Shown here: positions 5,108 to 31,034 of the stretch, in pieces
How positions within the stretch are numbered: the first letter of the stretch is position 1
How the letters are laid out: every line of letters begins with the position of its first letter
Sequence record: MK327931.1
DNA length: 64,000 nt
From: Escherichia phage vB_EcoM_G17
Strand: one strand, 5' to 3'
The notes under the pieces: generated by a model
The model's database searches: none
Told to the model about the DNA's origin: nothing
What the model saw: the letters and a program-made list of their open reading frames with translations, nothing else
Program-made: the position numbers and the translations under genes

Positions 5108-5165
5108 TTTGTTTTTCCCCGTGTTGGTATGTACATATAGTACTAAAACATTTGAGTACTGTCAA

Positions 5166-5384: not shown

Positions 5385-5437
5385 TTTGTTTCTCCCGTGT
5401 TGGTATATGTACATAGTACTAAAACATTTGAGTACTG

Positions 5438-5692: not shown

Positions 5693-5753
5693 TTTGTTTG
5701 TCCTATAAAAAAGGCGGGAACTGATCCCGCCGTGTTGTTAGTACTGCAAGTTA

Positions 5754-6149
5754 TTAGATAACCTGGCGGCGTTTACTGAATACTGTTACACGATTACCCT
5801 TACGGTCGTGTCGGATCTCTTTCTGGTTGCGAATCAGTTCACTTGGACGCTTAAGGTTTGCCAGGTGATCCGCGTGAGTCCATGCGGTGTGGTTTACCTG
5901 TACTTTGATATCAGAATCAGCGATAAACTCATCTTGTGCGTCAAGTATTGCCGCCAGCATATCCGCTCGTTTTAGTTCTGCTGCTGTCAGTACTGGCTCA
6001 GGTGAATTCACAATATCAGAGATTTCTTTGAACTGTACGGCCCAGCGTTGACCTTTCGGTGCATCTTTGCCCATGTCTTTAAATGCTGCTCCTTCCTCGC
6101 GTGCAACAATACGGGCAGCTTCACGGGTAGCGTAGAATTTAGTAATCAT
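5754..6149 (-). CDS. hypothetical protein, paralog of 17936..18202
   Basis: Shared N-terminal FATRE(A/Q)ARI and C-terminal DRKGNRVTV motifs with 17936..18202; start trimmed to MITKFY (AGGA SD). Confidence 0.6.
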   Translation of the reverse strand: MITKFYATREAARIVAREEGAAFKDMGKDAPKGQRWAVQFKEISDIVNSPEPVLTAAELKRADMLAAILDAQDEFIADSDIKVQVNHTAWTHADHLANLKRPSELIRNQKEIRHDRKGNRVTVFSKRRQVI

Positions 6150-6244
6150 GGTATACATCCTATTAGTTGAGATAGTACTACAAGTTAGAGTCTATTATAA
6201 AGTACTATCTGGGCAATGTCAAATAGTACTTTAAATGGATTCTA

Positions 6245-6568
6245 TTACATGTCTTTCTTACGTTTTACATCGTAGTATCGAACTGTAATTTCTTTGTTGA
6301 TCTCTTCCTCGATGCGGTGAATAACTTTTTCTTTCGGGTTGAAACCTATAACGGTTTCTTTAATGATCTCCAAGCCCGTGTATTCGCCTTGTGTACCGTA
6401 ACCGTATGTAAAGGTTTCGTGTCCCAGGTCTTCCCAGCGGTCGCCAATTAACGCTGACACGTAGCAAGAGTGGTAAGTATTGCCGTTCCGATCAGTCCAG
6501 CGATTAACTTTAATGTCAAAGGAGGTTACAATTTTCAGTTCTACTTTCTGGGTAAGGATCATAGCCAT
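6245..6568 (-). CDS. hypothetical protein, paralog of 12363..12686
   Basis: Both share RWTD..GNTYHSC.VS and FTYGY motifs and end VKRKKD(M/L). Confidence 0.6.
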   Translation of the reverse strand: MAMILTQKVELKIVTSFDIKVNRWTDRNGNTYHSCYVSALIGDRWEDLGHETFTYGYGTQGEYTGLEIIKETVIGFNPKEKVIHRIEEEINKEITVRYYDVKRKKDM

Positions 6569-6591
6569 TTTTATTTCTCTCTCTTTGTTAG

Positions 6592-6652
6592 GAGGGGAAC
6601 CATTCCCCTCGCTTGATGTAAACTATTATACAGTACTAAGATACTTTGTCAA
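6592..6652 (-). promoter_or_regulatory. consensus sigma70 promoter (TTGACA 6647-6652 rc, TATAAT 6625-6630 rc, 16 nt spacer) plus 5'UTR hairpin GAGGGGAA/TTCCCCTC (6592-6610)
   Basis: Read directly; representative of about 35 similar modules on the minus strand. Confidence 0.65.
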
Positions 6653-6655
6653 TAC

Positions 6656-6838
6656 TTATTTTTTGGAAAGTTTACGCATTAATTCTACGCTTTCTTGTGA
6701 ACGTTTTGCTACCTGGCAAGCTGTATGGGCAGTAAACATTTTTGTATAGTCTGACGCTTTGCCACCAAACCGAGCGGCACGTTCACGGGCACTTGGAACT
6801 AATACTATTTCTTTCTTGCAGATAGTGCACTTAGCCAT
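6656..6838 (-). CDS. hypothetical small protein (60 aa)
   Basis: Track ORF 6656..6883 trimmed to ATG 6838 (MAKCTICKK); the longer form would read through the upstream hairpin. Confidence 0.5.
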   Translation of the reverse strand: MAKCTICKKEIVLVPSARERAARFGGKASDYTKMFTAHTACQVAKRSQESVELMRKLSKK

Positions 6839-6926
6839 TTTTATTTCTCTCTCTTTGTTAGGAGGGGAACCGTTTCCCCTCACTTGATGTAAACTATTAT
6901 ACAGTACTAAGATACTTTATCAATAC

Positions 6927-7202
6927 TTAAGTATTGTAAATGTCGTGAATAGTGATAAAGTTTTTACGACCGTAAACCTGCAAATCAATATCAATGTAGT
7001 GCTTATCTAGTACATCCTCGACGCTTAACGCGGTGTCGTGGATATCTTCGTAGAATTGAGGATCTACAATCTTGCTTAAGTCATCCGGCGTTAACTTATC
7101 GTTAAGCCATTGAACCGCCTGGATATCTGCTTCACGTTTCCAGTCTTCCAGGTTAGTAGTCAGTACTTGTTCGATTTCGTTAGCTGTCAGTAGAATCCGC
7201 AT
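6927..7202 (-). CDS. hypothetical protein (91 aa)
   Basis: Track ORF. Confidence 0.55.
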   Translation of the reverse strand: MRILLTANEIEQVLTTNLEDWKREADIQAVQWLNDKLTPDDLSKIVDPQFYEDIHDTALSVEDVLDKHYIDIDLQVYGRKNFITIHDIYNT

Positions 7203-7517
7203 TTTTATGTTTCCTTATCAGTGGTTGATGTAAGTATTATACTCGTTTACTTTCTATTGTCAAACTATTTTATCAGGGGAGTTTTTCGTATGTCTTACTC
7301 CTGGACTACTTAACAGGGTTACTTATTTCGTTCCCCGTCCTGATGTAAAACATTATACTTGATTCTAAGTACAATGCAAGTACTTTTTTAAAAATAGTTT
7401 TCAGTACTAGCCACCAGCAAACAATAGATACATTTATGCACCCTGTGGGCTGATTTGTTTCTATGCGTATATAATAGCAAAGGGACTGACCGGAGTCAAT
7501 CCCTTTTTCAAATATTT

Positions 7518-7667
7518 TTAAACTTCTTTCGGGTTGCGATAGGTGATAGCGTTCGGGTACATTTGTTTAATGTTATTCCATGCCTGGTTAACATTATAAC
7601 CACTTGAGCGAATCAGTTGGTTACTACCGACACCTTGAAACACTACTTCGAATAAGAATTCTTTCAT
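7518..7667 (-). CDS. hypothetical small protein (49 aa)
   Basis: Hand-translated ORF below track cutoff (MKEFLFEVVFQGV...); start overlaps stop of upstream gene (ATGA). Confidence 0.35.
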   Translation of the reverse strand: MKEFLFEVVFQGVGSNQLIRSSGYNVNQAWNNIKQMYPNAITYRNPKEV

Positions 7668-7837
7668 GCTTTCACCTCGCTATCTGCTTTACCTTTACGC
7701 CAGGACATTACTAATTGTTCGCGTTGCCATAAGTCGAGTGATACAAAAAGTTTTGCGGTATCACTTTTAGGATACTCGCCAGTAGTACCTAACCGATAAA
7801 ACAGATCTTTCAGTACTGATAATTCTACTTGAATCAT
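7664..7837 (-). CDS. hypothetical small protein (57 aa)
   Basis: Hand-translated ORF (MIQVELSVLKDLFYRLG...); ATGA overlaps on both sides. Confidence 0.35.
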   Translation of the reverse strand: MIQVELSVLKDLFYRLGTTGEYPKSDTAKLFVSLDLWQREQLVMSWRKGKADSEVKA

Positions 7838-7926
7838 TTTATTACTCCTGATTGCGTTAATACTTCTACTATTGCATGAATGATCATAAGTACAGCTAAC
7901 ACAATAATCATCGGATTCATTTGCAT
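7834..7926 (-). CDS. hypothetical hydrophobic peptide (30 aa)
   Basis: Hand-translated (MQMNPMIIVLAVLMIIHAIVEV...); AAGGAG SD 8 nt upstream. Confidence 0.3.
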   Translation of the reverse strand: MQMNPMIIVLAVLMIIHAIVEVLTQSGVIK

Positions 7927-7943
7927 AAGCTGTACTCCTTATA

Positions 7944-8156
7944 TTAATCTTTCAGCCAATGATCTTGAATGAATTTTTCACCGTATCCCTGTTTCATGGA
8001 TTCTAACAGGCGTTCGCGGTGAGCGGCGGCATATTGCTCAGTACTATGCGTTACGCCAGGCTGATAACGTGATACCCCATCCGGTCCGATGTATTGTACA
8101 TCCCACGGTTTTTCGTTAGTATCAGACCATTTACGAACGATTAGTTGACCTTGCAT
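7944..8156 (-). CDS. hypothetical protein (70 aa)
   Basis: Track ORF; promoter/hairpin upstream. Confidence 0.55.
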   Translation of the reverse strand: MQGQLIVRKWSDTNEKPWDVQYIGPDGVSRYQPGVTHSTEQYAAAHRERLLESMKQGYGEKFIQDHWLKD

Positions 8157-8239
8157 TTTTCTTTCCTCTCAGTGGGGAGAATCATTTCTCCCCTTCATGT
8201 AACTTATTATACAGTACTAGATTATCTTGTCAATAGTTT

Positions 8240-8563
8240 TTATTCACCTTGTTTGAATTTAGTTTTCTCCATTGATTCCATGATTGCAACCAATACGCTG
8301 TGGATCTCGCTTAACGCGGAATCACTGAAAGCATTAATGAATAGTCGATCATTCTCGCGAATATTTTTAATGTACTTTTCAGCAGTAGTTGCGAATTCAT
8401 TCAACGGTAGATCAAATGCTTTATCCCATGATGGATGGCGTAATTGTAACAGTACTGGATTATCACGATCACCAGGGGAAAACGTACCAGTGATGAAACA
8501 TACGCCCGGAATACTTTCGAACTGGCAACGGACTTCCTTTGTGATAGTAGTATGAATGTACAT
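8240..8563 (-). CDS. hypothetical protein (107 aa)
   Basis: Track ORF. Confidence 0.55.
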   Translation of the reverse strand: MYIHTTITKEVRCQFESIPGVCFITGTFSPGDRDNPVLLQLRHPSWDKAFDLPLNEFATTAEKYIKNIRENDRLFINAFSDSALSEIHSVLVAIMESMEKTKFKQGE

Positions 8564-8590
8564 TTATTGTTATCCTCTATTAAATTAATA

Positions 8591-8779
8591 TTACAGTTTA
8601 TGAATCAATTCTTTATCTAAGCGATAGCGTACATTATTAATAGTAACGGCATTGTTTTTAATGCTACGCTGTACAGGTCCACCAGCAATAACAAATGTTG
8701 CTTTATTACCCCGAACAATGATAGCACTTCCAGGATTACCGAAATCATCTTGTACTAAAATACTTGATAAGTTTTCCAT
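8591..8779 (-). CDS. hypothetical protein (62 aa)
   Basis: Track ORF 8591..8785; second ATG (MENLS) has better SD spacing. Confidence 0.5.
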   Translation of the reverse strand: MENLSSILVQDDFGNPGSAIIVRGNKATFVIAGGPVQRSIKNNAVTINNVRYRLDKELIHKL

Positions 8780-8860
8780 TTTCATTTCCTCTTAGTAGGG
8801 GAAGATGTTTCCCCTTGATGTAAGTACTATAACACTACTGGATAGTACTGTCAATACTTT

Positions 8861-9118
8861 TTATCTCATAGATCTATGCCAACAATTACGCGGGGGACGT
8901 TTAAAAGTACTATCATGATCCTCCTGGCAAGTTATGCAGTACTTACATCCCTTAACAGCCTGGCGGCGATTCTCAGGGATTTTATCGCCACAGTCGAGGC
9001 AATGTATCAGTGATTCTATTTGTGCGTTAATTTGCTTTCTAGCGTGGTTTACGGCGGCCTGAATCACTGCGTTAATCTCGTCTTGTTCGGCCCCGTCTTT
9101 CGCGAATCCTACAGCCAT
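8861..9118 (-). CDS. TraR/DksA-family C4 zinc-finger protein
   Basis: Motif CLDCGDKIPENRRQAVKGCKYCITCQ matches the C-x2-C-G-x2-IPE-x-RR...C-x2-CQ signature of the TraR/DksA family. Confidence 0.65.
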   Translation of the reverse strand: MAVGFAKDGAEQDEINAVIQAAVNHARKQINAQIESLIHCLDCGDKIPENRRQAVKGCKYCITCQEDHDSTFKRPPRNCWHRSMR

Positions 9119-9315
9119 TATTTTAACCTTTTTCTATCATTAATTAATGCTTTCAGTACTATACTAATAACTTGCAATGATTCATCAATGACTATAAAAT
9201 TATTTTCTTTCATTAGATGATAGTTACCATTGATATTATATTCTAACGAGTACTGTTTACGTTTAATTTTTGATAATGTTTCTATTTGTTTTTGTACTGA
9301 TTTCATGCTAATCAT
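9118..9315 (-). CDS. hypothetical protein (65 aa)
   Basis: Track ORF; start shares a base with stop of upstream gene. Confidence 0.5.
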   Translation of the reverse strand: MISMKSVQKQIETLSKIKRKQYSLEYNINGNYHLMKENNFIVIDESLQVISIVLKALINDRKRLK

Positions 9316-9420
9316 TGTTAAACGTCCTGTAACGCATTCTAACGAGATAAACGGTTTAGTACTGGCATTGTATAGGGTAATGAATTAAAGCCCACCAGCG
9401 TTAACCAGTGGGCTATAATC

Positions 9421-9564
9421 TTACATCTTGCGGATAATCTTAACAGTATCTTTCACCGATTTACCGTCTTGCTGGCATTGCTCGATCATTGCGTATTGTT
9501 CTGCGGTCAGATCCTCGCCAGTTTTTGCCAGTACTGCGTCGATGAATGAATCCAGTGCGATCAT
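9421..9564 (-). CDS. hypothetical small protein (47 aa)
   Basis: Hand-translated (MIALDSFIDAVLAKTGEDL...); SD AAGAGAGA; promoter module upstream. Confidence 0.4.
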   Translation of the reverse strand: MIALDSFIDAVLAKTGEDLTAEQYAMIEQCQQDGKSVKDTVKIIRKM

Positions 9565-9663
9565 TTTATTTCTCTCTTAGGTTAAGTTAACTACTGTTTA
9601 TAAAACTTATTATACAGTACTATCAAACGTTGTCAATATATTTAATAGTACTGGTAATATATT

Positions 9664-9843
9664 TTAGCGGTAATCGTCGTATGCTTTATTCACCTGGCGA
9701 ATGTAACTTTCAAAGGCTTCGTCTACCGTTTCATACTCCCGAACATAATCACCATAGGAAACTACATACATACCTTTTTGATCTTCAAACGTCATGATGA
9801 TAGAATCCAGACCAACGATTTCAGTTTTTGCGATGATAGCCAT
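9664..9843 (-). CDS. hypothetical small protein (59 aa)
   Basis: Hand-translated (MAIIAKTEIVGLDSI...); promoter module upstream at about 9850-9910. Confidence 0.4.
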   Translation of the reverse strand: MAIIAKTEIVGLDSIIMTFEDQKGMYVVSYGDYVREYETVDEAFESYIRQVNKAYDDYR

Positions 9844-9936
9844 TTTTTTAATTCCTTAGTAGTGTAGTTGATAAAACTTATTATGCCAGTACTATCAATC
9901 ATTGTCAATAGCTTTGATAGTACTGTGATAATATTT

Positions 9937-10149
9937 TTAGTTAATGATAGTCAGTGTAAAATTGTAATCACCACAGCGATATAGCACGTTATTCCCAAAT
10001 GTTCCAACTAATCGCACATCACACAAAACGCCGGTTTTTTCTTTTACTTCCTTGATACTTGTAACTCCTGTAATATCTTTATTAAAGTATTCATGATCTG
10101 AAAATAAAACTTGTTTTGCATTTTTTAATTTCGACCGGATATTAGCCAT
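9937..10149 (-). CDS. hypothetical protein (70 aa)
   Basis: Track ORF; promoter/hairpin upstream. Confidence 0.55.
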   Translation of the reverse strand: MANIRSKLKNAKQVLFSDHEYFNKDITGVTSIKEVKEKTGVLCDVRLVGTFGNNVLYRCGDYNFTLTIIN

Positions 10150-10244
10150 TTTGTTTTCTCTCTGTTAGTGGGGAGAAGTTTTTCTCCCCTTGATGTAAAC
10201 TATTATACAGTACTATAATCTATTGTCAAACTATTTTTTTTATA

Positions 10245-10586
10245 TTATTCGAAATCTTCTGGACCGGACTGATAATCATCTTCACCGTATGCACTTTCTA
10301 ACTTCTCGCCAGTGTGGTCATCAGTTAGTGAGTCATCCTCATAGTTCACGTCTACGCCAGTGATGTAAAACTGGCTATCGTCTGGATCATTGAAATTAAT
10401 TTTCTGTATGTTTACAATAACTGTATTGATGCCCAGGACACCGCCATCAGCCGTTACAAAGTACTGATATTTTTCACAACCGCCTGAATTGAAACCGTAA
10501 TTAATTTCGGCCCGACCATCATTTAAACGCAGTGCCTGAGCGATGATTTCATTTTCAAAGTTAGATTGAGCAATTGAGATAGTCAT
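10245..10586 (-). CDS. hypothetical acidic protein (113 aa)
   Basis: Track ORF; promoter/hairpin upstream. Confidence 0.6.
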   Translation of the reverse strand: MTISIAQSNFENEIIAQALRLNDGRAEINYGFNSGGCEKYQYFVTADGGVLGINTVIVNIQKINFNDPDDSQFYITGVDVNYEDDSLTDDHTGEKLESAYGEDDYQSGPEDFE

Positions 10587-10796
10587 GATTTGTTTCCTTA
10601 TTACCAGGGGAAACCGTTTCCCCTTTCGATGTAAAACATTATACGCTTATTGAGATAGTTTGCAAGTACTTTTTAAAAATAGTTTTCAGTACTCAAACAT
10701 TATACAATAGATACACTCCTGCACCCTGTGGGCTAGTGAGCTATCTCTCAATGAATATATAATAGCAAAATGGCTGACCGAAGTCAACCACTTTTT

Positions 10797-13718: not shown

Positions 13719-14201
13719 TTATGCTTCAACTTTGCGATGAGCTTCGATCCATTCCTCGCGAGTCATACCGCTTTCTTTGATAGCGTCCAGTACTACCGCA
13801 ATGCAGTTACCGCGTACAGGAATCAAATGTTCTTCCCCGTTATCAAGTACTACCGCTACACGTTCCTGAATCCATTTTTTAGGCTTAGATTCCGGCTTAT
13901 CTTCACCATACTTAACCGCCAGGGCTTTATGTGCCATTTCCACAACCACTTCCAGATCCAATCCAGACACTGCCGCCTGAATACTTTCAATTGTTGCTTG
14001 TAGTTCTGCTTCACGGGCTTTTTTCTGTTCTTCCAGTTCTGCTACCTTTTTGGCTTGCAGTTCTTTCGCAGTACTGTACGCAATGTTAAAATTGTTGCGT
14101 ACCGCTTTCATGGTATCGCTATCCAGTTCAGCCAGGATTTCTGCCGCTACGTTAGTTTCATTTGCTACCAGTGCTTTGATGAATGATTTTACATTAGCCA
14201 T
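13719..14201 (-). CDS. hypothetical protein (160 aa)
   Basis: Track ORF 13719..14216 trimmed to ATG 14201 (MANVKSF) with GAGGA SD. Confidence 0.6.
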   Translation of the reverse strand: MANVKSFIKALVANETNVAAEILAELDSDTMKAVRNNFNIAYSTAKELQAKKVAELEEQKKAREAELQATIESIQAAVSGLDLEVVVEMAHKALAVKYGEDKPESKPKKWIQERVAVVLDNGEEHLIPVRGNCIAVVLDAIKESGMTREEWIEAHRKVEA

Positions 14202-14400
14202 TTTATAAATCCTCAATTAAAGTTTAGTTTACGTTAGATAGTGTATCAAAGTTTTCTCGACGTGTCCAGTTTTTCGTTCGACTTACTGGCGGTCTACTTA
14301 GTGCTCCCCGTCTTGATGTAATACATTCTACGCTTTTCTGTGGTAATGTCAACTACTTTTTTAAAACTATTTTTAAAGTATCTCAGTACTACGATACTAC

Positions 14401-16219: not shown

Positions 16220-16486
16220 TTATAATCCTTTTACTGCATCAGGTGCGACTACTCCATCAATGTATTGAACATCGTTTTCAACTTCACGGGCGGCATCATT
16301 CAGCAGATCAAAATTAAATTCCATTTCTTCCAGATCATCGAAATCAGGCTCATAACCATTAATTGTTGAATAAGTCCAAGTACCTTTTTCATAAGTTACG
16401 ACACTTACATCAGGGAAGAAATCTTGCACATGATCCATCGCATCCCGAACCAATTGATGTGCAGTTGTGATATTTAAAGTTTTCAT
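16220..16486 (-). CDS. hypothetical protein (88 aa)
   Basis: Track ORF. Confidence 0.55.
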   Translation of the reverse strand: MKTLNITTAHQLVRDAMDHVQDFFPDVSVVTYEKGTWTYSTINGYEPDFDDLEEMEFNFDLLNDAAREVENDVQYIDGVVAPDAVKGL

Positions 16487-16579
16487 TTTGTTGCCCTTTT
16501 AGTGTGAGCGGGGAACCACTCCCCGCCTCGATGTAAAGTATTATACGCTTTTAAACTTAGTTTGCAAGTACTTTTTAAA

Positions 16580-17191
16580 TTAATATGCGATTGATTCTAC
16601 TACGTCATCAATAACATTGAATTGATATTCGTTACCCTCAATCAGTGCCGTAATGTTTTCAGTAGTGAATTGATCCTCATATGCATTCTCTAAATCACGG
16701 TACAACTTGCGGGATAATTCACGAATAGTTTCAGTGAGTAGTTCCTCAAGCTCATTAACTAACGTTTCTTGTTTTGCGGTTAAATCAGTGTAAGCCGATT
16801 CAATGTACCCGCTTACAGTATTCTCATGCGAGTAGTGGGAGTGAGAACGCTTTACACTCATCGCCAAATCATCTTCATTCAGCAGGTGACGGATTGAGCG
16901 ATACTTAGTTAATGCTCTTACCTTGCGTAAAAACTTCACTGCGTCAACGTGGTCAGTACTGATTGATGCACCGTCACCCTGGGACCAAAAACCACTGAAT
17001 TGTATTTCAGCTTCATTAATGCCATATTCCGGTAGTACTGTTTCTTTATAGTATTCAATTTCACTTTCAGAAAAATAATTGTCGTTTGAGTTTTTTTCAC
17101 GTTCCCGAACCAGTTCGATAGCTGACGTTTTTTGTTCTGCGTTCAATTCAGAAAAATCCATAACGAAAGTAGTAGTAGTGATAGTTTTCAT
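16580..17191 (-). CDS. hypothetical protein (203 aa)
   Basis: Track ORF; tandem promoters and structured leader upstream (17200-17400). Confidence 0.65.
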   Translation of the reverse strand: MKTITTTTFVMDFSELNAEQKTSAIELVREREKNSNDNYFSESEIEYYKETVLPEYGINEAEIQFSGFWSQGDGASISTDHVDAVKFLRKVRALTKYRSIRHLLNEDDLAMSVKRSHSHYSHENTVSGYIESAYTDLTAKQETLVNELEELLTETIRELSRKLYRDLENAYEDQFTTENITALIEGNEYQFNVIDDVVESIAY

Positions 17192-17617
17192 TTTGTAACC
17201 CTCATTCAGTAGTTGATGTAAGTATTATACGCTTTTAAAAACATTTGTCAAACTATTTTATCAGGGGAGTTTTTCGTGTGCCTTACTCCTGGGCTACTTA
17301 ACGGGAAGTTACTTATTTCGTTCCCCGTCCTGATGTAAAACATTATACGCCTTTAAACATAGTTTGCAAGTACTTTTTAAAAATAGTTTTCAGTACTGAA
17401 TATTTAAAAAAGTATTGACAGCATTATCAAGTACTGGCATAATATACCCCATGACAACAGCTAACCCACCGGGTGCACAATTGTAACTATACTAAACTAC
17501 TTTTTCTATAGATACACTCCCGCACCCTATGGGCTACGGCTTATCTGCCAATGAATACATTATGCCAGTACTGACAAAATAAGTCAATACCGGCAATTGT
17601 AAAGATTTGTAAACTGC

Positions 17618-17848
17618 TTATACTGCAATCGCGTCCAGGCTATAATAATAATAAGTGCCGTATTGGTGTACTTTATTACCTTTTATTTCAGTACTGAATG
17701 AATCCGAACGGTTTGCATATGATGTTAATTTAAAGTACTTTGATTTGCTGATACGTTGCCATACACCGCAGATCCGCTGTAAGTAAGTAGTTTTATTCGT
17801 GGTAGTATCTTTTACAGTTTTAACTTCAGTCATATACATATTAGTCAT
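17618..17848 (-). CDS. hypothetical protein (76 aa)
   Basis: Track ORF; GGAG SD. Confidence 0.5.
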   Translation of the reverse strand: MTNMYMTEVKTVKDTTTNKTTYLQRICGVWQRISKSKYFKLTSYANRSDSFSTEIKGNKVHQYGTYYYYSLDAIAV

Positions 17849-17935
17849 TTTTATTACTCCAGGTTATAGGCGGGAAGAGTTCCCGCTCTCGATGTAAAAC
17901 ATTATACGCCATTAAACATAGTTTGCAAGTACTTT

Positions 17936-18983: not shown

Positions 18984-19764
18984 CGTATTAATCTCTTTTA
19001 AAGTGTAGCGGGAAGTGTTCCCGCTCTCGATGTAAAACATTATACGCCTTTAAACATAGTTTGCAAGTACTTTCTACATGTACTTTTAAAATAGTTTTCT
19101 TTCTATATAGGGGAACTATCATTCAGTACTATTATTCAGTACTGAATCAACCAAATCACTACTACACCCCATAAAACGGCCTCAGACGCATTCTAACGCA
19201 TTAATACACCTAAGCTATACATTTGCACCATTCCAATCATTCCAGGGCTTTACGGGCCGTTTAAACGCGTTAAATTATTTTCAATTATTTTGTTTTTAGC
19301 TATTGACTCAGTACAGAAAAAGCGTATAATTACTACATAGACGCGAGAAAGCGGAAACCCCAGAGGGTGCGGAATTACGCCCAAAATTCAAGATATAAAA
19401 AAAGGATACACTCCCGCACCCTAGCAGGTAAACGCACTTTCTCAGTACTGAAATATAGTACCATAGTCCGGCCCAGGATAGCAAGCAAATTAATTAAAAC
19501 TTTTTTGCTTCCAGGGTATTGCTTTATTTTTTCAGTACTGTATAATAGTTCCATCAAGTCGAGAAAGACTCAAGCCCACCGGGTGCATAGTTACGCCCAA
19601 AATTCAGTACTGAAAAAATTTTTAAAAATATCCGTCCAGGCCGTTGACATTGCCCCCAGTTTATAAGATAATGATTCCAGATTCAGAAAAATCTAACTCC
19701 AGATACTGCGGGGAAACTATCCCCACGCGGTAGGGGAACTATTGGAAAAAACAAAATAAAATTT

Positions 19765-19880
19765 TGATTTAGCCGTCTATACTTCCAGACGTGTAACCAT
19801 CTAGCCGTTTAGCCGTCCAAACGTCTAGCCATCCAGAAATCTAGCCGTCTAGATGGATAGCCATCTTTACTTCCAGACTT
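19765..19880. repeat. iteron cluster: six copies of TAGCC(G/A)T and two of CTTCCAGAC
   Basis: Read directly: tagccgtc at about 19770, 19802, 19809, 19825 (tagccatc), 19841, 19857; no ORF. Confidence 0.6.
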
Positions 19881-20868
19881 CTGGAGGGCTAGACATATCT
19901 ACGCCCAAAATCCATCCAGGGTAACTACACCCAAAATCCGTCAGTACTATACCATAGATCTATCTTTTGAAAGGGAGTATTCAGTACTGCCATCATAGCC
20001 CTCACTATGTTACCCTAGGAGGATGAAGACCATCATGTAGTACTGAATACTGTTAGAGGGAATCCACCAGCACAAGCTGGTGGTATAATGCTTTAGATTA
20101 AAATCAGTACTGACACCATTCTGTTAATATCAGTACTGTTATTACGATTTTCATATGAGGTTCAAAAAGATGTACCACCACAGGAGGAACTATCTTTTCT
20201 GTACTGTCTCACGACAGGAGGTAGAGTAAATGAATTGTTCGCAGCAACTCATCACCCCTTGAAGCTATGTAGAACATTATACAGTACTGAATCATAATGT
20301 CAATAGCTTTCTTTCATTATTCAGTACTGATATTCTTGAGAACTACCCGACTACAAACATCATTATATCCCACAAATCATAAACGTCCCAACGTAAATTT
20401 CAACTTTCGAAGATCCAACTTTTATTTCATAGGTACTCCAAAATTTTTAGGATCGAGATTTAGGATGGAGTACTAACCAACTTTTTGCTGGAGCCTCAAG
20501 GGGTAATTGAATTTTACCCCGAAGGGTAAAAGGGTAATTGTAATTAAGGTGAAAGTAATAATTCAGTACTAATCATTGCGTGATTACTTTTGATTACATT
20601 TGATGTAATTTGCAAAATGGAAAAGGAGCTTGGAAACTACAAAGTACGGCAGACTTCCTCTGCCTACTTAGTGGCATATCAGTACTGAATCATTCACACA
20701 CATTTCCGTGCATTCTTGTCTATACTAATCAGTACTGAATCATATATAATCATTCTGTGATTCTACGGTGCTCATATAAATGTTTATATATGATTACTTA
20801 TGACTACCTATGATTACGGGGTTTAGCCTGGGGAGAATCCTAGTGATCGCATTTGTCCAGGCTGAATT

Positions 20869-20891
20869 TTAACATATGCAACATATGTTAA
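20869..20891. promoter_or_regulatory. perfect palindrome TTAACATATG-caa-CATATGTTAA (candidate dimeric-protein binding site)
   Basis: 10 bp arms, perfect inverted repeat, in non-coding DNA downstream of the small-protein operon. Confidence 0.45.
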
Positions 20892-20933
20892 AGCCTGTAT
20901 AATGCTTCCACTACGGAGCTTCCCCTAGCTATA

Positions 20934-21125
20934 TTACTTCCTATATATAATCATTAAGATATAGTAGTACTGATTATACTGTACATTCTCTTTAATATTA
21001 TAAGGGTCTATAGCAATCTCGGTACATCTATTAAATGCATATCTATTAAATGCCAGTGGAATTATAGATCTAATCCATACTTGTTCATTTTCTTTTAGTT
21101 TACTTATATAGAAGTTTTTATACAT
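20934..21125 (-). CDS. MHKEYY-family small protein (member 1)
   Basis: 63 aa; N-terminus MYKNFY, C-terminus LMIIYRK. Confidence 0.6.
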   Translation of the reverse strand: MYKNFYISKLKENEQVWIRSIIPLAFNRYAFNRCTEIAIDPYNIKENVQYNQYYYILMIIYRK

Positions 21126-24937: not shown

Positions 24938-25039
24938 GTGTAGTTCTCCTTATATTCCTTCTATAGTACACCAGTACTGAAAGGATGTCAAGGGTTTTCT
25001 TTATGGGGTAAATATGATATAATGAATAAGGAGGGATTT
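24938..25039. promoter_or_regulatory. divergent promoter region between the small-protein operon (minus) and the MLPF/RCC1-like array (plus)
   Basis: Minus: TTGACA-N17-TACTAT then AAGGAG; plus: TATAAT at about 25016 then AAGGAGGG and ATG at 25040. Confidence 0.55.
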
Positions 25040-26176
25040 ATGTTACCTTTTGTTAGAATGTTAAATTATGGGAACGTAGCACCAGAAAAACTAAAAGTTC
25101 GTGATATTGTTGCAGGTGCTAATTCATTATTACTAATAACCGAGGATAATGAATTATGGGTGCGTGGTAATAATTCGTATGGCAAATTAGGTATAGGAAC
25201 TGATACTATAGTGAATGTAACCGAGTGGACTAAAGTTAGAGATGATGTTAAGTTTGCTTGTGCTAGTAATTTAGTATGCGTTGTATTAACTGTAGATAAT
25301 AAAATTTTCTACTGTGGTGATGAATGGTTTGAATCTGGTGGTTCGACAAGTTCTAAAGTTGTTACATGGAAAGATGTTACGACACAATTTAGTGCAGTGA
25401 ATCTAAGCACAGTACGTGAAATGAAAATGACTTCTTATTGTGTAGGATTACTTACAAATGATAATAGATTATATGCTAAAGGATATGATAATAACCAATC
25501 ATTTGGTGGTTCAACAAGCAAAGTTAATGCTGTATTAGTTGCGTCAAATGTTTCAAAATTCTACACTTCTCTATCTGGTACTATATATTCTAGTACTACT
25601 GGTGGTTACTACCGCTGTGGTATAAGCAATACTGGAGCATTGGGTACTAGCACAAATTTAACTTCTTATAATTTGTACTCTGCTCCCGAATTTGCATCCG
25701 AATGTGCAGTTGGTATGTCAACATTAAACTCTGGTATATTATATTATGATACTAATGGTAGCACTAGATATGTTATAGCAGGTCAAAATAGATATTATCA
25801 ACTAGGTAATTCTTCTTCAAATACCACAAACGTATATTCGTATACAGAATTAACCGGATATAGAGGCAGGTTTAGGGATTTGTGGAGTGATATGAATAAC
25901 TCTGTTCTTTCTTTTGCTATAAGCACAGATGGCAATACTTTATATTATGCTGGTACTAACACTACACTATCTTCTGGTGACCCTGGTGTTGAATATTCAT
26001 CTACATTTAAAGAAGTACCACACGGGTTTAATGATATAACAAAGGCGGCATCGTTAGCCTATCTATCTATAGTGCAAGATTCAACGGGATGGTATTATTC
26101 TGGAAATGCAACTACGTTATATGGTTTGCCATCGAGTGATGAATTTATACCATTACCATTACCAACAATAATTTAA
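25040..26176 (+). CDS. MLPF-family RCC1-like repeat protein R1
   Basis: N-terminus MLPFVRMLNYGNVAP; repeated G-x-N-x-(Y/G)-(G/Q)-LG-x-G motifs (NNSYGKLGIGT, QNRYYQLGNSS); start trimmed from 25022 to the ATG with AAGGAGGG SD. Confidence 0.7.
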   Translation: MLPFVRMLNYGNVAPEKLKVRDIVAGANSLLLITEDNELWVRGNNSYGKLGIGTDTIVNVTEWTKVRDDVKFACASNLVCVVLTVDNKIFYCGDEWFESGGSTSSKVVTWKDVTTQFSAVNLSTVREMKMTSYCVGLLTNDNRLYAKGYDNNQSFGGSTSKVNAVLVASNVSKFYTSLSGTIYSSTTGGYYRCGISNTGALGTSTNLTSYNLYSAPEFASECAVGMSTLNSGILYYDTNGSTRYVIAGQNRYYQLGNSSSNTTNVYSYTELTGYRGRFRDLWSDMNNSVLSFAISTDGNTLYYAGTNTTLSSGDPGVEYSSTFKEVPHGFNDITKAASLAYLSIVQDSTGWYYSGNATTLYGLPSSDEFIPLPLPTII

Positions 26177-26182
26177 ATACAG

Positions 26183-26211
26183 GCCAGTACTTGATACTGG
26201 CTTTTCTTTTT
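26183..26211 (+). terminator. Rho-independent terminator after R1 (GCCAGTA-N5-TACTGGC plus T-run)
   Basis: Inverted repeat followed by ttttctttttt; next promoter -10 TATAAT at 26226-26231. Confidence 0.6.
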
Positions 26212-26247
26212 TGTATTAAATATAGTATAATGAATAAGGAGGGAAAT

Positions 26248-27450
26248 ATGTTACCTTTTGGAAGAATGGTTAAGTACGCAAATATTGCACCAGGTCCAGA
26301 ACCTGTAGAGTTCTCAGATGTTTTACAACAACATTATACAAACTGTATGTATCTCCATAACCCAACTAATACTTTATATGGTTATGGTAGTAATAACTTT
26401 TACCAATTTGGTCTTGGGAATTCAGCAGCAGTTTCGTCATTTACAGTACTTGCAAGGAACTGTGCAGCCTTTTGGCTTGGTGTTCAAGGTTCATTGATGA
26501 TTGATTTGGATAATAAAATATACTACACTGGGTCGGTTGGTGCATTTTCTGATTATGGAGATGCAACACCTGTTAATGGTTATTTGACAACATGGACTGA
26601 TGTTACTGTTGCATTTAATAAAATAGGTGTTATGGCTAATATGATCAAGAGTGTATATATAGGTGAAAGTACTAGAATATTATTAACCGATGGTAGAGTA
26701 ATTGCGTGTGGAAGAAATACTAATGGTGAATGTGGCTCTGGTAATAAAAATTCCATCCCTACACTCACAGTTATGACTAATATGGGTGAAGTTACACATA
26801 TGGCATGTTCATTACAAGGAACGCACTATATCAAATCAAATAAAGATGCATGGTTTTGTGGTAAGGATAACTTTGGTGAAAGTGGATGTGGTGGTAGTTT
26901 TGTTGTATATTTGAACAAATTCGTGATTAGTAATGTAGAACATATTAGTACTACATACGATGTTACTTGGTGGTTTACTACTGGTGGGCCTGTATATTAT
27001 AGCGGGGCTAACAGTTCTGGACAAGCTGGTAATGGTACGACTACATCGGTAAATCAGCTAACACCAATTAGGAACACATCGGTCACGGTTGATGTAAGTA
27101 AGTACAGTACTTTTATTTGTCCAAGTAATATGGGAAATGCATCAATTGGTGCACCTATGGCACAATACGCACCATATGTTAGAAGTAGTGGTGCTAACTC
27201 ATATGGTCAAGAAGGTAATGGAACTAATACATTAGTTAGAACTTGGAATATTTTTAATCTTAGTGCAATAAGTGGTGGTTATGACAATGTTCTTATGGCA
27301 TCTAAAGATTGGAGCAGAACCATAATAATTACTAAAGATTATAAATTATATGCATGTGGTGGCTGGAATGGTAGTGGTGGTAGATTACCTGATGGCACTT
27401 ATAGTATTACTACACTAACATTAATGCCAACGCAGTTATGGCAACAATAG
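26248..27450 (+). CDS. MLPF-family RCC1-like repeat protein R2
   Basis: MLPFGRMVKYANIAP; motifs SNNFYQFGLGN, RNTNGECGSGN, ANSYGQEGNGT; start trimmed from 26191. Confidence 0.7.
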   Translation: MLPFGRMVKYANIAPGPEPVEFSDVLQQHYTNCMYLHNPTNTLYGYGSNNFYQFGLGNSAAVSSFTVLARNCAAFWLGVQGSLMIDLDNKIYYTGSVGAFSDYGDATPVNGYLTTWTDVTVAFNKIGVMANMIKSVYIGESTRILLTDGRVIACGRNTNGECGSGNKNSIPTLTVMTNMGEVTHMACSLQGTHYIKSNKDAWFCGKDNFGESGCGGSFVVYLNKFVISNVEHISTTYDVTWWFTTGGPVYYSGANSSGQAGNGTTTSVNQLTPIRNTSVTVDVSKYSTFICPSNMGNASIGAPMAQYAPYVRSSGANSYGQEGNGTNTLVRTWNIFNLSAISGGYDNVLMASKDWSRTIIITKDYKLYACGGWNGSGGRLPDGTYSITTLTLMPTQLWQQ

Positions 27451-27458
27451 GAGGGAAT

Positions 27459-28568
27459 ATGTTACCTTTTGGAAGAATGATTAGGTATGGAAATATTGTC
27501 CCTGGTCCTAAAAAAATAATTAAAGTTGGTGCTTCTACCCAAGGCCAATTCTTATTGACTGATTCACATGATTTATATTACATAGGTAGAAATCAAGGTG
27601 GTGAATCTGGAAATGGTAATACCAACACGGTGTCTTCGTGGACATTAGTAAGTGCAGATGTTTCTAATTTTTTCGTGGGTGATCGTACACTTGTTATTAT
27701 TAAAAATGATAATACGATATGGACATCAGGTCAAACGTACTGGTTCTCATCTTCTACAACTACTTCTTACAGTACTGTATTAGTTGAAAGAACTAATTGG
27801 TTTACCAATGCTATACCAGTAAGTGAAATTGCTAATATTGTATGCACAAATGGTTTAATATTTGTACTTAGCACTAATTCAGTACTCTATGGTGCAGGAG
27901 ATAATGGATATCGTGGTTCTTTGGGTATTGGTTCATCATCAATTTACACATTAACTCAATGTGCTACGAACGTTCGTAAAGTAATGACCAATGCGAATGA
28001 TAGTATGTATCTTACATTAGATAATAAGCTATATAGTTCTGGATGGAATAGTAGTGGGCAGCATGGTACGGGGAACCAAACACAAATTAACACTTGGGGA
28101 TTGCGTAGTTCTGGTGTAATCGATGCAGCCATTGGTGGTAATGCATTAAATTACTATAATGGTACATCATATTTCGTATGTGGTCAAACTCCAAACTTTC
28201 TTAGTTCAGGTACGACTACATTCCGTGCAGTTCCTTTAAGTACTTTGCCTAATAGTTCTCCATTGTTTATGACGAATTCACCTGCCTTAAATACTGCTAC
28301 ACAAATGGTAATTACTAGTACATATCAGAAGGGTGTTGGGGCGAACCGTGGTTTGGGATTAAACAATTCTCAAACTGGTGCTATATATAGTGCTACCAAT
28401 TTACAATTACCCGTTGAAGTTAGTGAGATTAGGGATGTTCTTTTTAGTGATGGTTTGACATCGATATTAACCAAAAATGGAGACGTGTATAGTACTGGAT
28501 CGTATTACGCCATTCCAGGTGCAATCGAGGATGTTGCAGTCTTTACTAAAATTGATTTACCAAAATAA
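27459..28568 (+). CDS. MLPF-family RCC1-like repeat protein R3
   Basis: MLPFGRMIRYGNIVP; motifs RNQGGESGNGN, DNGYRGSLGIG, WNSSGQHGTGN; no terminator between R2 and R3 (co-transcribed). Confidence 0.7.
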   Translation: MLPFGRMIRYGNIVPGPKKIIKVGASTQGQFLLTDSHDLYYIGRNQGGESGNGNTNTVSSWTLVSADVSNFFVGDRTLVIIKNDNTIWTSGQTYWFSSSTTTSYSTVLVERTNWFTNAIPVSEIANIVCTNGLIFVLSTNSVLYGAGDNGYRGSLGIGSSSIYTLTQCATNVRKVMTNANDSMYLTLDNKLYSSGWNSSGQHGTGNQTQINTWGLRSSGVIDAAIGGNALNYYNGTSYFVCGQTPNFLSSGTTTFRAVPLSTLPNSSPLFMTNSPALNTATQMVITSTYQKGVGANRGLGLNNSQTGAIYSATNLQLPVEVSEIRDVLFSDGLTSILTKNGDVYSTGSYYAIPGAIEDVAVFTKIDLPK

Positions 28569-28574
28569 CATAAT

Positions 28575-28604
28575 GCCAGTACTCTGTACTGGCTTTCTTA
28601 TTTG
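28575..28604 (+). terminator. Rho-independent terminator after R3
   Basis: GCCAGTAC-tct-GTACTGGC then T-rich tract. Confidence 0.6.
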
Positions 28605-28638
28605 TATTAAATATAGTATAATGAATAAAGGAGGGAAT

Positions 28639-29808
28639 ATGTTACCTTTTGGAAGAATGATTAAGTACGGAAATATTGCACCTGCTAAACCAAATATTAA
28701 AAAAATACTTGCTAACAACTATAATGTTGCTGTTTTAACAAACAGTGGTGATTTATATGTGCGTGGTGAGAATGCAAATGGTCTTTTGGGTTTAGGTCAC
28801 AAAAATACTGTTACTACATGGACTTATAGTACTTCTGGTGTTCAAGATTTTTGGATGGGAGCCACGACGATAGTTCTTAAGAAAAGCAATGATGAAATAT
28901 GGTACAGTGGAAGTTCAACAACTGTTGGTATGAAAGGGGCAGCAGTATCAATATGGACTTCTGCTATGCCAACATTCGATACATTAACATTACCAATATT
29001 AGATATAGCAGTTAGTTATCAGACTACAAGTGTGTTACTGTCAGACCAAACAATATGGAGTACTGGAGTGGGGTCAGATGGTCAGTTGGGTGATGGGACA
29101 ACAACTAACAATATTGCTGGTAAATTCGTCAAAAGTACTGTTCCGGCCGCAGCAAATCAATTACCTGTTAAATTGTTTGCAAGTAATTTAATGCACGGTT
29201 ATGTTACAAACCAAGGATGGCTATTTTATACAGGAAGAGTAAATGCAGTTACAAGTTCAGGAAGTAAGTTATATACTATATATTATGGTGCTCCTACCAG
29301 CTTAAGAAATACAATTAATATCAAGTACTACACGGAGAATGGTACTTCAATGGCAATGGCAATTGGTACTGATCCAAATGGAAAAACCATCATCGCAAAT
29401 GGCGGTTCGAGAATATTTGGTGCACAAGCAGATGGGACAAATGGTTCTCTCAATGATTATAGAGCATTTGAGGTTCAAACTGCTTCACTAATGCCACCCG
29501 GTGATGTAGTAAGCATTGCTAACAATACTTCATATTATAACCAAGTTATTGCTACAACAGATGGTATATATTGTTGCGGCTACAATCAATCTTCAGAAGC
29601 TGGTATGTTAGGTATTGGTACATCTACCAATGCATTGGTATATACCAAAGCAATCGTGCCTGATGGGTTTGATTATAGTAAGTCGCAGATGGCAGGTGGG
29701 TATAACCGAACTTATATAACTGATGGTAATTTTGTATATAGCACAGGGACAAATGTCACATATGGTGGCGTTAGTAGCTTAGAATTTGTATTAGATTCAC
29801 CAGTTTAA
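28639..29808 (+). CDS. MLPF-family RCC1-like repeat protein R4
   Basis: MLPFGRMIKYGNIAP; motifs ENANGLLGLGH, VGSDGQLGDGT, YNQSSEAGMLGIGT; start trimmed from 28477. Confidence 0.7.
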   Translation: MLPFGRMIKYGNIAPAKPNIKKILANNYNVAVLTNSGDLYVRGENANGLLGLGHKNTVTTWTYSTSGVQDFWMGATTIVLKKSNDEIWYSGSSTTVGMKGAAVSIWTSAMPTFDTLTLPILDIAVSYQTTSVLLSDQTIWSTGVGSDGQLGDGTTTNNIAGKFVKSTVPAAANQLPVKLFASNLMHGYVTNQGWLFYTGRVNAVTSSGSKLYTIYYGAPTSLRNTINIKYYTENGTSMAMAIGTDPNGKTIIANGGSRIFGAQADGTNGSLNDYRAFEVQTASLMPPGDVVSIANNTSYYNQVIATTDGIYCCGYNQSSEAGMLGIGTSTNALVYTKAIVPDGFDYSKSQMAGGYNRTYITDGNFVYSTGTNVTYGGVSSLEFVLDSPV

Positions 29809-29814
29809 ATATAT

Positions 29815-29845: not shown

Positions 29846-29879
29846 ATTAAATATAGTATAATGAATAAAGGAGGGAAAT

Positions 29880-31028: not shown

Positions 31029-31034
31029 TTTAAT

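What the first reader, a model, noticed from the sequence alone, without database searches (positions are those of the whole stretch)
17255..17350. Roughly 90 nt structured leader duplicated between tandem promoters
The segment TATTTTATCAGGGGAGTTTTTCGT(A/G)TG(T/C)CTTACTCCTGG(A/G)CTACTTAAC(A/G)GG(G/A)(T/A)(T/G)ACTTATTTCGTTCCCCGTCCTGATGTAAAACATTATAC occurs at 7240-7340 and 17255-17350 (a degenerate third copy at about 14250-14330). On the minus strand it lies between an upstream promoter (TTGCAA-N16-TATAAT) and a second promoter (TTGACA-N17-TATAAT) that precedes the gene, so promoter 1 would make an 80-90 nt RNA ending at promoter 2. It contains internal complementary stretches (ACGGGGAAC/GTTCCCCGT-like). 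This could be a small RNA or riboregulatory leader controlling the downstream genes (6927..7202 and 16580..17191).
Basis: seen in the sequence. Interest (0 to 1): 0.6.

Follow-up and report, generated by a model that had tools for sequence, protein, structure and literature searches.

The report
Conserved T7-type early leader RNA
The repeated ~85-base segment between two tandem early promoters of jumbo phage Sharanji is a copy of a structured leader RNA also found just downstream of promoter A1 in phage T7 and in hundreds of its relatives; I found no annotation or description of it, and its function is unknown.

Summary
The window is Escherichia phage Sharanji (Asteriusvirus). On the minus strand, three copies (17336..17260, 7346..7272, and a shorter one at 14319..14245) each lie directly after a consensus sigma-70 promoter. 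Two are followed by a second promoter; none by a terminator.

The segment is not a private duplication. Its core is an invariant UAAGUAG followed by a 5-bp hairpin with a conserved 14-17 nt loop (AAGnCnnAyGAAAA). The same core occurs between promoters A1 and A2 of T7, in 485 T7-like phage records, in rV5-like phages and in other jumbo phages. It always lies 24-61 nt after an early promoter's -10 and precedes unrelated genes.

Covariation is strong. The hairpin stem has at least seven fully paired variants. T7-like phages add a pseudoknot with five covarying pairs. G.U pairs fit only the sense RNA. A model built from T7-like phages alone finds exactly these three window sites.

No Rfam family matches, and the open-access papers I could search describe nothing like it.

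I infer a gene-independent leader RNA that acts through host machinery, possibly on the elongating RNA polymerase. A discrete 80-90 nt sRNA and gene-specific control are not supported.

The parts
17342..17369 (-). P1 of copy W17: TTGCAA-N16-TATAAT, preceded by the AAAAAGTAC A/T-rich upstream block
   Evidence: 10 of 12 consensus matches. Activity is inferred, not measured.
17260..17336 (-). Leader RNA element, copy W17. Closing helix AUCAGG 17334..17329 with CCUGAU 17265..17260. Hairpin 1 spans 17328..17301 (ACGGGG/UCCCGU). Linker UAAGUAGCCCA is 17300..17290. Hairpin 2 spans 17289..17266 (GGAGU, 14-nt loop AAGGCACACGAAAA, ACUCC).
   Evidence: Fold (-19.8 kcal/mol, z -1.78). Pair counts. The T7-only model R2 hits 17330..17256 at E 1.8e-4.
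17224..17251 (-). P2 of copy W17: TTGACA-N16-TATAAT (12 of 12), 8 nt after the closing helix
16580..17191 (-). Downstream gene Sharanji gp097 (203 aa, PHROG 5162, function unknown)
7352..7379 (-). P1 of copy W07: TTGCAT-N16-TATAAT
7272..7346 (-). Leader RNA element, copy W07. Closing helix 7344..7339 with 7277..7272. Hairpin 1 spans 7338..7313 (ACGGGG/CCCUGU, with a G.U pair). UAAGUAG is 7312..7306. Hairpin 2 spans 7301..7278.
   Evidence: z -2.28. R2 hits 7340..7268 at E 7.7e-5.
7236..7263 (-). P2 of copy W07: TTGACA-N16-TATAAT
6927..7202 (-). Downstream gene gp070 (91 aa, PHROG 14947). In phage muut, P2 and the first ~70 nt of its homologue read here are nearly identical.
14325..14352 (-). 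P1 of copy W14: TTGACA-N16-TAGAAT
14245..14319 (-). Short form of the element (copy W14), with no hairpin 1. UAAGUAG is 14300..14294. Hairpin 2 spans 14289..14266 (CCAGU/ACUGG). Closing helix is GACG 14312..14309 with CGUC 14262..14259, plus a possible AUCAA 14317..14313 with UUGAU 14249..14245. No clear P2 follows.
   Evidence: R2 hits 14300..14265 at E 4.9e-5. A 35-nt core is 91% identical to T7-group phages.
13719..14201 (-). Downstream gene gp090 (160 aa, PHROG 27871); its 5' UTR contains copy W14

Best explanation
The segment is one of three copies of a structured 5' leader RNA. It belongs to a family I could not find annotated or described. The prototype is the stretch between promoters A1 and A2 of phage T7.

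Proposed mechanism: host sigma-70 RNA polymerase starts at P1 and makes this RNA as the first ~80 nt of the transcript. The RNA folds into a closing helix that encloses an optional hairpin 1, an invariant single-stranded UAAGUAG, and hairpin 2 with a conserved 14-nt loop. There is no terminator, so the transcript continues across P2 into the gene.

The module sits in front of unrelated genes in three unrelated phage groups whose only evident common denominators are enterobacterial hosts and consensus sigma-70-type early promoters. Its unpaired nucleotides are its best-conserved part. I therefore infer that it works in a gene-independent way through a host component. The most likely target is the elongating host RNA polymerase or the nascent early transcript, as with the HK022 put RNA (anti-pausing or antitermination, or protection of untranslated early RNA).

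Shown here: the repeat, the consensus promoters, family membership and base-pair covariation. Inferred: transcription in Sharanji, and the mode of action.

My confidence by level: a real structured RNA family, about 0.85. A gene-independent element directed at host machinery, about 0.5. A put-like action on the polymerase specifically, about 0.25.
For: Repeat and context:
- Three copies against 0 expected by chance.
- The promoters match consensus and there is no terminator.

Family:
- The core of copy W14 matches T7-group phages at the A1-A2 interval.
- A pattern scan of IMG/VR recovers about 40 T7-like contigs with the same layout.
- The T7 version occurs in 485 phage records, one copy each. 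The Sharanji version occurs in 44 records, including rV5-like and Justusliebigvirus phages.
- UAAGUAG lies 24-61 nt after an upstream -10 hexamer in 54 distinct sequences.

Structure:
- The four core pairs of hairpin 2 are paired in 29 of 29 sequences, with CG/GC, CG/GC/UA and UA/AU/UG exchanges. No shuffle out of 500 reaches the covariation score, and slid controls drop to 35-47% paired.
- In T7-likes, 10 of 16 pairs show double changes. These include 5 of the 6 pairs of a pseudoknot between the hairpin 1 loop and the 6 nt after hairpin 2: GUCAA/UUGAC, GAUUAG/CUAAUC, GUCGGU/ACCGAC, GUCAUC/GAUGAC.
- G.U and U.G pairs (W07, 121Q, EJP2, L064, L069, L075) are valid only in the sense RNA.

Independent membership test: a model built only from T7-like phages finds exactly the three window copies (E 5e-5 to 2e-4; next best hit E 1.2) and aligns both hairpins in register.

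Gene independence: the downstream genes differ.

Position: the copies lie in the early region near the left genome end, inside the 21.5-kb terminal repeat of vB_Ec-M-J. In T7 the element is 0.55 kb from the end.
Against: - There are no expression data for Sharanji. P1 activity and read-through are inferred from consensus.
- Predicted stability is modest: z -1.8 and -2.3 for the two long copies, and -0.84 for copy W14.
- Sharanji-type copies are at least 88% identical to each other. Support for their closing helix and hairpin 1 therefore rests on few events.
- Topology differs between classes. The closing helix is nested in Sharanji, while T7 has a pseudoknot. Hairpin 1 is missing in copy W14.
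- Early-gene cassettes are exchanged between these phage groups. P2 and the start of the gene are nearly identical in muut and W07. Similarity alone therefore does not prove selection.
- In T7 the A-tract of the hairpin 2 loop also fits the proximal UP-element subsite of A2, so part of the conservation there could act at the DNA level.
- Nothing here tests an effect on RNA polymerase.
- Older subscription literature on T7 could not be searched.
Confidence: 0.5

Rival explanations
1. A stand-alone small RNA. P1 makes a discrete ~85-nt RNA, either terminated or cut out before P2, which acts in trans on host or phage mRNAs or proteins.
For: The segment has its own strong promoter and is independent of the downstream gene. 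An A/U-rich single-stranded stretch follows the closing helix. From memory, the T7 A1 leader is released from the mRNA by RNase III at R0.3, so the T7 homologue does end up on a separate RNA.
Against: No terminator-like site or U-tract is present. In copy W14 the RNA necessarily runs into the gene. The large loop varies at four positions, which is unlike an antisense seed. No match to E. coli genomes was found at BLAST sensitivity.
Confidence: 0.15
2. A DNA-level feature or an evolutionary relic. The segment is left over from recombination between promoter cassettes (PeSL-type shuffling). It survives only as spacer or UP-element DNA for the tandem promoters and has no RNA function.
For: Hairpin 1 and the following GGAG...ACG look like a standard Sharanji cassette (hairpin, SD, ATG). 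One EJP2 copy has ATG at that place. In T7, ACGAAAAACAGGTA|TTGACA places the A-tract at -46..-42, where I recall the proximal UP subsite AAAAAARNR. Mosaic exchange between phages is evident.
Against: Compensatory changes occur in three helices, and the G.U pairs are sense-specific. The distance from the GAAA at the 3' end of the hairpin 2 loop to the next -35 varies from 7 to 42 nt, and there is no next promoter in copy W14 or in L048. The core is near-invariant across T7-like genera whose A1 initial transcribed regions differ.
Confidence: 0.12
3. A gene-specific riboregulatory leader that controls translation or stability of gp097, gp070 and gp090.
For: Copy W14 is the only 5' UTR of gp090. 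In the full W17 leader, the minimum-energy fold pairs GUAGCCC with the SD region GAGGGUUAC of gp097.
Against: That pairing is absent in W07. The downstream genes are unrelated (PHROGs 5162, 14947, 27871) and differ again in other phages. P2 lets the gene bypass the leader.
Confidence: 0.07

Closest known systems
Phage T7 early leader between E. coli promoters A1 (nt 498) and A2 (nt 626), about nt 535-596
   Same: It is homologous. It has the same UAAGUAG linker and the same hairpin 2 with the AAGUCnnACGAAAA loop. A hairpin lies directly upstream, a helix forms directly after hairpin 2, and the whole lies just after a strong sigma-70 early promoter and before a second one.
   Different: In T7 the element starts at about +38, after a separate 5' hairpin. 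The segment after hairpin 2, which is the A2 -35 UUGACA, pairs with the hairpin 1 loop to form a pseudoknot. In Sharanji the element starts at +3 and that segment pairs with the 5' end, giving a nested three-way junction. I know of no function assigned to this stretch of T7.
HK022 put RNA (putL/putR), a nascent RNA that makes host RNA polymerase resistant to pausing and termination (PMC9378689)
   Same: It is about 70-75 nt with two stem-loops, starts at +3 of an early sigma-70 promoter, needs no phage protein, and sits at the head of early transcription units.
   Different: No sequence or structure match was found. putL (AGACGAACGGCGCGUCUUUAAACC...) is unrelated by eye, and model R1 finds nothing in the two HK022 stretches fetched (22-33.5 kb; putL located in L079, putR not located) at E<=1. 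Antitermination activity and dependence on the beta' zinc-binding domain are untested.
PeSL cassettes (promoter-early stem-loops) of T4-type phages RB49 and phi1 (PMC2839356)
   Same: These are repeated cassettes of a strong sigma-70-like promoter with an A/T-rich upstream region and a GGGG...CCCC stem-loop, placed in front of small orphan genes and thought to drive modular shuffling. That describes the ~45 ordinary early cassettes of this window, and hairpin 1 of the element.
   Different: In PeSLs the stem-loop is read as a terminator or attenuator. PeSLs have no UAAGUAG and no second hairpin with a conserved loop. They were described in a different phage family.
Lambda nut and rrn antitermination sites (boxB hairpin plus boxA)
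   Same: The 3' half of hairpin 2 (GAAAAACAGGC) resembles boxB as I recall it (GCCCUGAAAAAGGGC). In contig L048 the element is followed about 17 nt later by a perfect boxA, CGCUCUUUAACAA. T7 carries the same boxA farther downstream, at about nt 813-825.
   Different: The loop is 14-17 nt, not a pentaloop. No boxA lies near the window copies. No N-like protein is implied.

Membership tests
   UAAGUAG is 39, 37 and 24 nt after the -10 hexamer in W17, W07 and W14. The range is 24-61 nt across 54 distinct family sequences.
   All three copies carry it. The stem covaries across the family.
   W17 and W07 have AUCAGG/CCUGAU at offset 0. W14 has GACG/CGUC. The T7 class has a pseudoknot at offset 2 with 5 covarying pairs. 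The topology differs: nested here, pseudoknot in T7.
   Model R2, built from 18 T7-like sequences only, gives E 4.9e-5, 7.7e-5 and 1.8e-4 for the three copies. The next best window hit has E 1.2.
HK022 put antiterminator RNA | Sequence or structure homology to putL/putR | tested here: not met
   putL, located in L079, shows no similarity by eye. R1 gives no hit in the two HK022 stretches L079 and L080 at E<=1. No put model was available to run the reverse test.
HK022 put antiterminator RNA | Makes host RNA polymerase resistant to terminators and pauses through the beta' zinc-binding domain | not testable with these tools
   This needs in vitro transcription or genetics.
PeSL regulatory cassettes | Strong sigma-70-like promoter plus a GGGG..CCCC stem-loop, repeated in front of small orphan genes | tested here: met
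   Repeat families with 24 or more copies; promoter and leader listing.
PeSL regulatory cassettes | The stem-loop acts as a terminator, and the cassettes recombine into mini-circles | not testable with these tools
   The only indirect sign is the mosaic structure: muut combines a W17-like element with W07's P2 and gene.
Hfq-type trans-acting sRNA | Rho-independent terminator with a U-tail at the 3' end | tested here: not met
   No terminator-like site in 16400-17900. The sequence after the closing helix is AAAAUAGUUUGACA.
Riboswitch or gene-specific cis-regulatory leader | Consistent association with one gene family or pathway, plus an expression platform | tested here: not met
   The downstream genes are unrelated. 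There is no terminator and no conserved SD sequestration.
Any Rfam family | Score at or near a family's gathering threshold | tested here: not met
   The whole window gives no match at gathering scores. For 17200-17400 the only hit is at E 3.9, 13.7 bits against a threshold of 40. T7 nt 400-930 gives no hit at E<=10.

The most novel reading that the evidence does not exclude
The T7 A1 leader and its homologues in jumbo and rV5-like phages encode a new class of compact, pseudoknotted nascent RNA. It would engage host machinery in the first seconds of infection. It could reprogram the elongating E. coli RNA polymerase as put does, but with an unrelated fold. Alternatively it could be a ligand-binding or self-processing RNA. 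Either way, a functional RNA would have gone unnoticed in one of the best-studied stretches of phage DNA.
Probability: 0.25. Interest if true: 0.85.

Novelty: new variant of a known kind. Interest (0 to 1): 0.62.

Why it matters
Early leaders are the first RNA a phage makes, and host RNA polymerase makes them. An RNA fold conserved across T7-like podophages, rV5-like myophages and 350-kb jumbo phages, which appear to share only enterobacterial hosts, points to a common interaction with host machinery at the onset of infection.

The T7 copy lies in the A1 transcript, a standard template of transcription biochemistry. T7 genetics is easy. The hypothesis can therefore be tested directly with stem-swap mutants and in vitro elongation or termination assays.

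If the element is functional, it should be annotated in hundreds of phage genomes. It would also matter for engineered T7 early regions and for phage-derived promoter parts.

If it turns out to be inert, it is still a clear marker of how early promoter cassettes move between unrelated phages.

Tried and rejected
- tRNA or tmRNA: none in the window.
- Rfam: no family matches.
- Opposite-strand RNA: the plus-strand folds are no better than shuffles (z -0.43 and -0.30), and the G.U pairs would become A.C mismatches.
- Mini-ORF: most copies have ACG where a start codon would sit. Only EJP2_5762 has ATG (MKNTPDKRIKKY), and the copy W14 lineage lacks the SD. Rejected as a coding feature.
- Host mimicry or antisense to host: no BLAST match of the Sharanji or T7 element to 5,426 E. 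coli genomes. This test is insensitive to seeds shorter than about 15 nt.
- boxA in the window: the only exact match (57595) lies on the plus strand inside a minus-strand ORF, so it is chance.
- Sigma-dependent pause element: UAAGUAG does not fit the AnnnT pattern by inspection.
- CsrA sites: the GGA motifs are lost in copy W14.
- Closing helix judged sequence by sequence: 5-7 bp helices are not significant against shuffles. Only the cross-species compensation is convincing.
- Metagenome and IMG/VR scans with the Sharanji-specific pattern added only near-identical Asteriusvirus contigs.
- Literature: the Sharanji paper does not discuss promoters. The CBB paper lists RpoD-like promoters only. 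Searching the literal T7 sequence finds it only as a promoter fragment.

Full report
WHAT THE WINDOW IS. The window is 100% identical to Escherichia phage Sharanji (OR545507.1), a 350-kb jumbo phage of genus Asteriusvirus. Window coordinate equals record coordinate minus 15777. Positions 1-20.3 kb carry about 45 short genes of unknown function, all on the minus strand. Nearly every gene has its own cassette. A cassette consists of an A/T-rich block, TTGCAA or TTGACA, a 16-17 nt spacer, TATAAT, the conserved start GTTTTACAT(C/A)GAG, a 7-8 bp G/C hairpin (GGGGAGAA-nnn-TTCTCCCC and compensated variants), an SD and ATG. In the relative vB_Ec-M-J this region lies inside the 21.5-kb direct terminal repeat and is read inward from the left end. 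The published Sharanji paper does not discuss promoters or RNAs.

THE OBSERVATION. The reported segment is real. A 30-nt degenerate core matches three times, all on the minus strand, against zero expected. A covariance-model scan of the whole window with filters off finds the same three sites and nothing else. BLAST finds no further place in the Sharanji genome. Copies W17 (17336..17260) and W07 (7346..7272) lie between a consensus P1 and a perfect P2. The P2 spacer is 16 nt, not 17. Copy W14 (14319..14245) is shorter, lacks one hairpin and has no convincing P2, so it is simply the 5' UTR of gp090. No terminator-like site occurs anywhere in 16400-17900. The real helices are AUCAGG/CCUGAU (closing), ACGGGG/CCCCGU-like (hairpin 1) and GGAGU/ACUCC (hairpin 2).

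RELATIVES. The W17 sequence occurs at 88-100% identity in 44 phage records. About 35 of these are Asteriusvirus. Seven are unrelated ~145-kb phages: A73, W70, outra, EmilieFrey, muut, A7_1 and A5-4. In every case it sits after a sigma-70-type promoter and before another promoter, but the downstream genes differ.

The decisive lead came from copy W14. Its core, TAAGTAGACCGCCAGTAAGTCGAACGAAAAACTGG, is 91% identical to Yersinia phage phiA1122, and 86% identical to coliphage 13a, at positions that fall between early promoters A1 and A2 as annotated in T7 and 13a.

T7 itself reads as follows. From A1 +1: AUCGAGAGGGAC...[CCGG GGUCAA CCGG]A-UAAGUAG-ACAG[CCUG AUAAGUCGCACGAAAAA CAGG]UA-UUGACA, where UUGACA is the A2 -35. 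A pattern scan of IMG/VR returned about 40 T7-like contigs with the same layout, plus other jumbo phages. BLAST with the T7 stretch finds it in 485 phage records with hosts that include Escherichia, Klebsiella, Salmonella, Yersinia, Enterobacter, Citrobacter, Shigella, Serratia and Aeromonas. Each record has one copy. The listed hits carry no RNA annotation; most have none, a few overlap hypothetical proteins, and the T3 record marks a -35 signal there.

Across 54 distinct sequences, UAAGUAG lies 24-61 nt after an upstream -10 hexamer. The next -35 lies 7-42 nt after the GAAA at the 3' end of the hairpin 2 loop, or is absent. In contig L048 the element is followed by a perfect boxA rather than by a promoter.

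IS IT AN RNA STRUCTURE? Yes, with good support.
- Hairpin 2 occurs as GCCUG/CAGGC, GCUUG/CAAGC, CCUGU/ACAGG, CCAGU/ACUGG, GGAGU/ACUCC, GGUGU/ACACC and CUUGU/ACAAG. Its four core pairs are paired in 29 of 29 distinct sequences. No shuffle out of 500 reaches the covariation score. Sliding the partner by 1-3 columns drops pairing from 92.5% to 35-47%.
- In 18 T7-like sequences, 10 of 16 pairs show changes on both sides. Hairpin 1 varies as CCGG/CCGG, CCAG/CUGG, CCAC/GUGG and CGGG/CCCG.
- Unexpectedly, the hairpin 1 loop pairs with the six bases that start 2 nt after hairpin 2: GUCAA/UUGAC in most, GAUUAG/CUAAUC in L028, GUCGGU/ACCGAC in L036 and GUCAUC/GAUGAC in L075. This makes a pseudoknot with five covarying pairs. 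In most T7-likes the 3' strand of that pseudoknot doubles as the A2 -35 hexamer.
- In Sharanji-type and short forms, the bases after hairpin 2 pair instead with the 5' end. Examples are AUCAGG/CCUGAU; UAUCAGGACG/UGUUCUGGUA in L042; CGGCG/UGCCG in Munch; UCAACGAAG/UUUCGUUGG in L041; and GACG/CGUC in W14.
- G.U and U.G pairs in several members are compatible only with the sense strand. The plus-strand folds are no better than shuffles.
- Predicted stability of the window copies is modest: z -1.8, -2.3 and -0.8.

MEMBERSHIP. A covariance model built only from T7-like phages, with no window sequence in it, finds exactly the three window copies (E 5e-5 to 2e-4; next hit E 1.2). It aligns hairpin 1, UAAGUAG and hairpin 2 in register. 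No Rfam family matches the window, the element or the T7 leader. Literal sequence searches of the open-access library find the T7 stretch only as a promoter or 'internalisation signal' fragment. I could not search older subscription papers.

WHAT IT DOES (inference). Four facts constrain the function.
1. The module is independent of the downstream gene.
2. It has no terminator, and in W14 it must be part of the mRNA.
3. It is shared by three phage groups whose only evident common denominators are enterobacterial hosts and consensus sigma-70-type early promoters.
4. Its best-conserved parts are unpaired nucleotides (UAAGUAG and the big loop), while its stems drift with compensation. This pattern fits recognition by a partner or a tertiary fold rather than antisense pairing.

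It also sits at the head of early transcription units near the genome end that, by analogy with T7, presumably enters the cell first. It follows strong terminators in A73, A7_1 and LTH01, and a terminator-like hairpin in W07.

The best-fitting known precedent is the HK022 put RNA. That is a ~70-nt two-hairpin nascent RNA that starts at +3 of an early promoter and binds the polymerase that made it (PMC9378689). There is no sequence or structure homology to put, so this is an analogy and not membership. Protection of untranslated early RNA, a link with boxA-type antitermination, a released decoy RNA, a ligand-binding RNA or a self-processing RNA are not excluded.

A purely DNA-level role, as an UP element of P2 or as a relic of cassette recombination of the PeSL type (PMC2839356), explains the origin of the segment and perhaps the T7 A-tract. 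It does not explain the covariation or the variable distance to P2.

VERDICT. The segment is a member of a widespread structured early-leader RNA family, apparently undescribed, whose prototype sits in the T7 A1 transcript. Its function is unknown. I put about 0.85 on a real structured RNA, about 0.5 on a gene-independent element directed at host machinery, and about 0.25 on a put-like action.

Noticed in passing
whole window 1-64000: The palindrome AGTACT occurs 282 times against about 22 expected from base composition, a 13-fold excess. The next most enriched palindromic hexamer is at 2.2-fold. Some copies sit in promoter contexts (AAAAAGTAC|TTGCAA, CAGTACTG|TATAAT) and some in terminator loops. 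The copies are far more numerous than promoters and have varied flanks.
   Followed up: partly
window 1396-1498, 4143-4250, 7417-7519, 10700-10796, 17501-17589, 19395-19430 (minus strand): A second repeated non-coding module. It starts with the hairpin AAAAAGGGATTGACTCCGGTCAGTCCCTTTGCTATTATAT, which also reads as TTGACT-N17-TATTAT. This is followed by a conserved AGCCCAYAGGGTGCRGGAGTGTATCTAT. It lies just upstream of the P1 of W07 and W17 and of two ordinary cassettes, and may be another leader or small RNA.
   Followed up: partly
window 17415-17443 (+) and 17587-17559 (-): Two near-consensus extended -10 promoters (TTGACA-N17-TGgCATAAT and TTGACT-N17-TGGCATAAT) face each other across about 115 bp of non-coding DNA inside the 17392-17617 gap between genes. 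They would make overlapping antisense transcripts.
   Followed up: no
window 1-20300, minus strand: About 45 early promoter cassettes share the initial transcribed sequence ACAUCGAGAG plus a GGGA.. hairpin with the T7 A1 start AUCGAGAGGGAC. The ordinary cassettes therefore also look T7 A1-like, and they resemble the PeSL cassettes of T4-type phages.
   Followed up: partly
window about 19400-21100: By comparison with vB_Ec-M-J (terminal repeat 1-21525, first gene at 1760), the physical left end of the genome should map near window 21.0 kb. The stretch 19.4-21 kb has no annotated genes (only short mechanical ORFs) and carries a promoter at 20303 that reads into non-coding sequence.
   Followed up: no
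window 25000-38000 (+): Eleven tandem ~1.2-kb paralogous genes. Most have the same TATAAT-SD-ATGTTACCTTTTG start, and at least seven of the junctions carry a GCCAGTACTnnGTACTGGC hairpin. Some homologues are annotated as RCC1-like in phage UE-S1.
   Followed up: no
window 43851-57234: A repeated hairpin, GGCTGACCGAAGTCAACC, with 8-9 copies lies after minus-strand genes. These are probably a shared terminator family, related to the one at 1432-10796.
   Followed up: no
L048 4050-4200 and L041 (IMG/VR contigs): A compact version of the T7 early leader: promoter, then the short-form element, then about 17 nt later a perfect boxA (CGCUCUUUAACAAUCUGG, identical to T7 nt ~813-830), all inside a ~500-nt non-coding region before the first gene.
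   Followed up: partly
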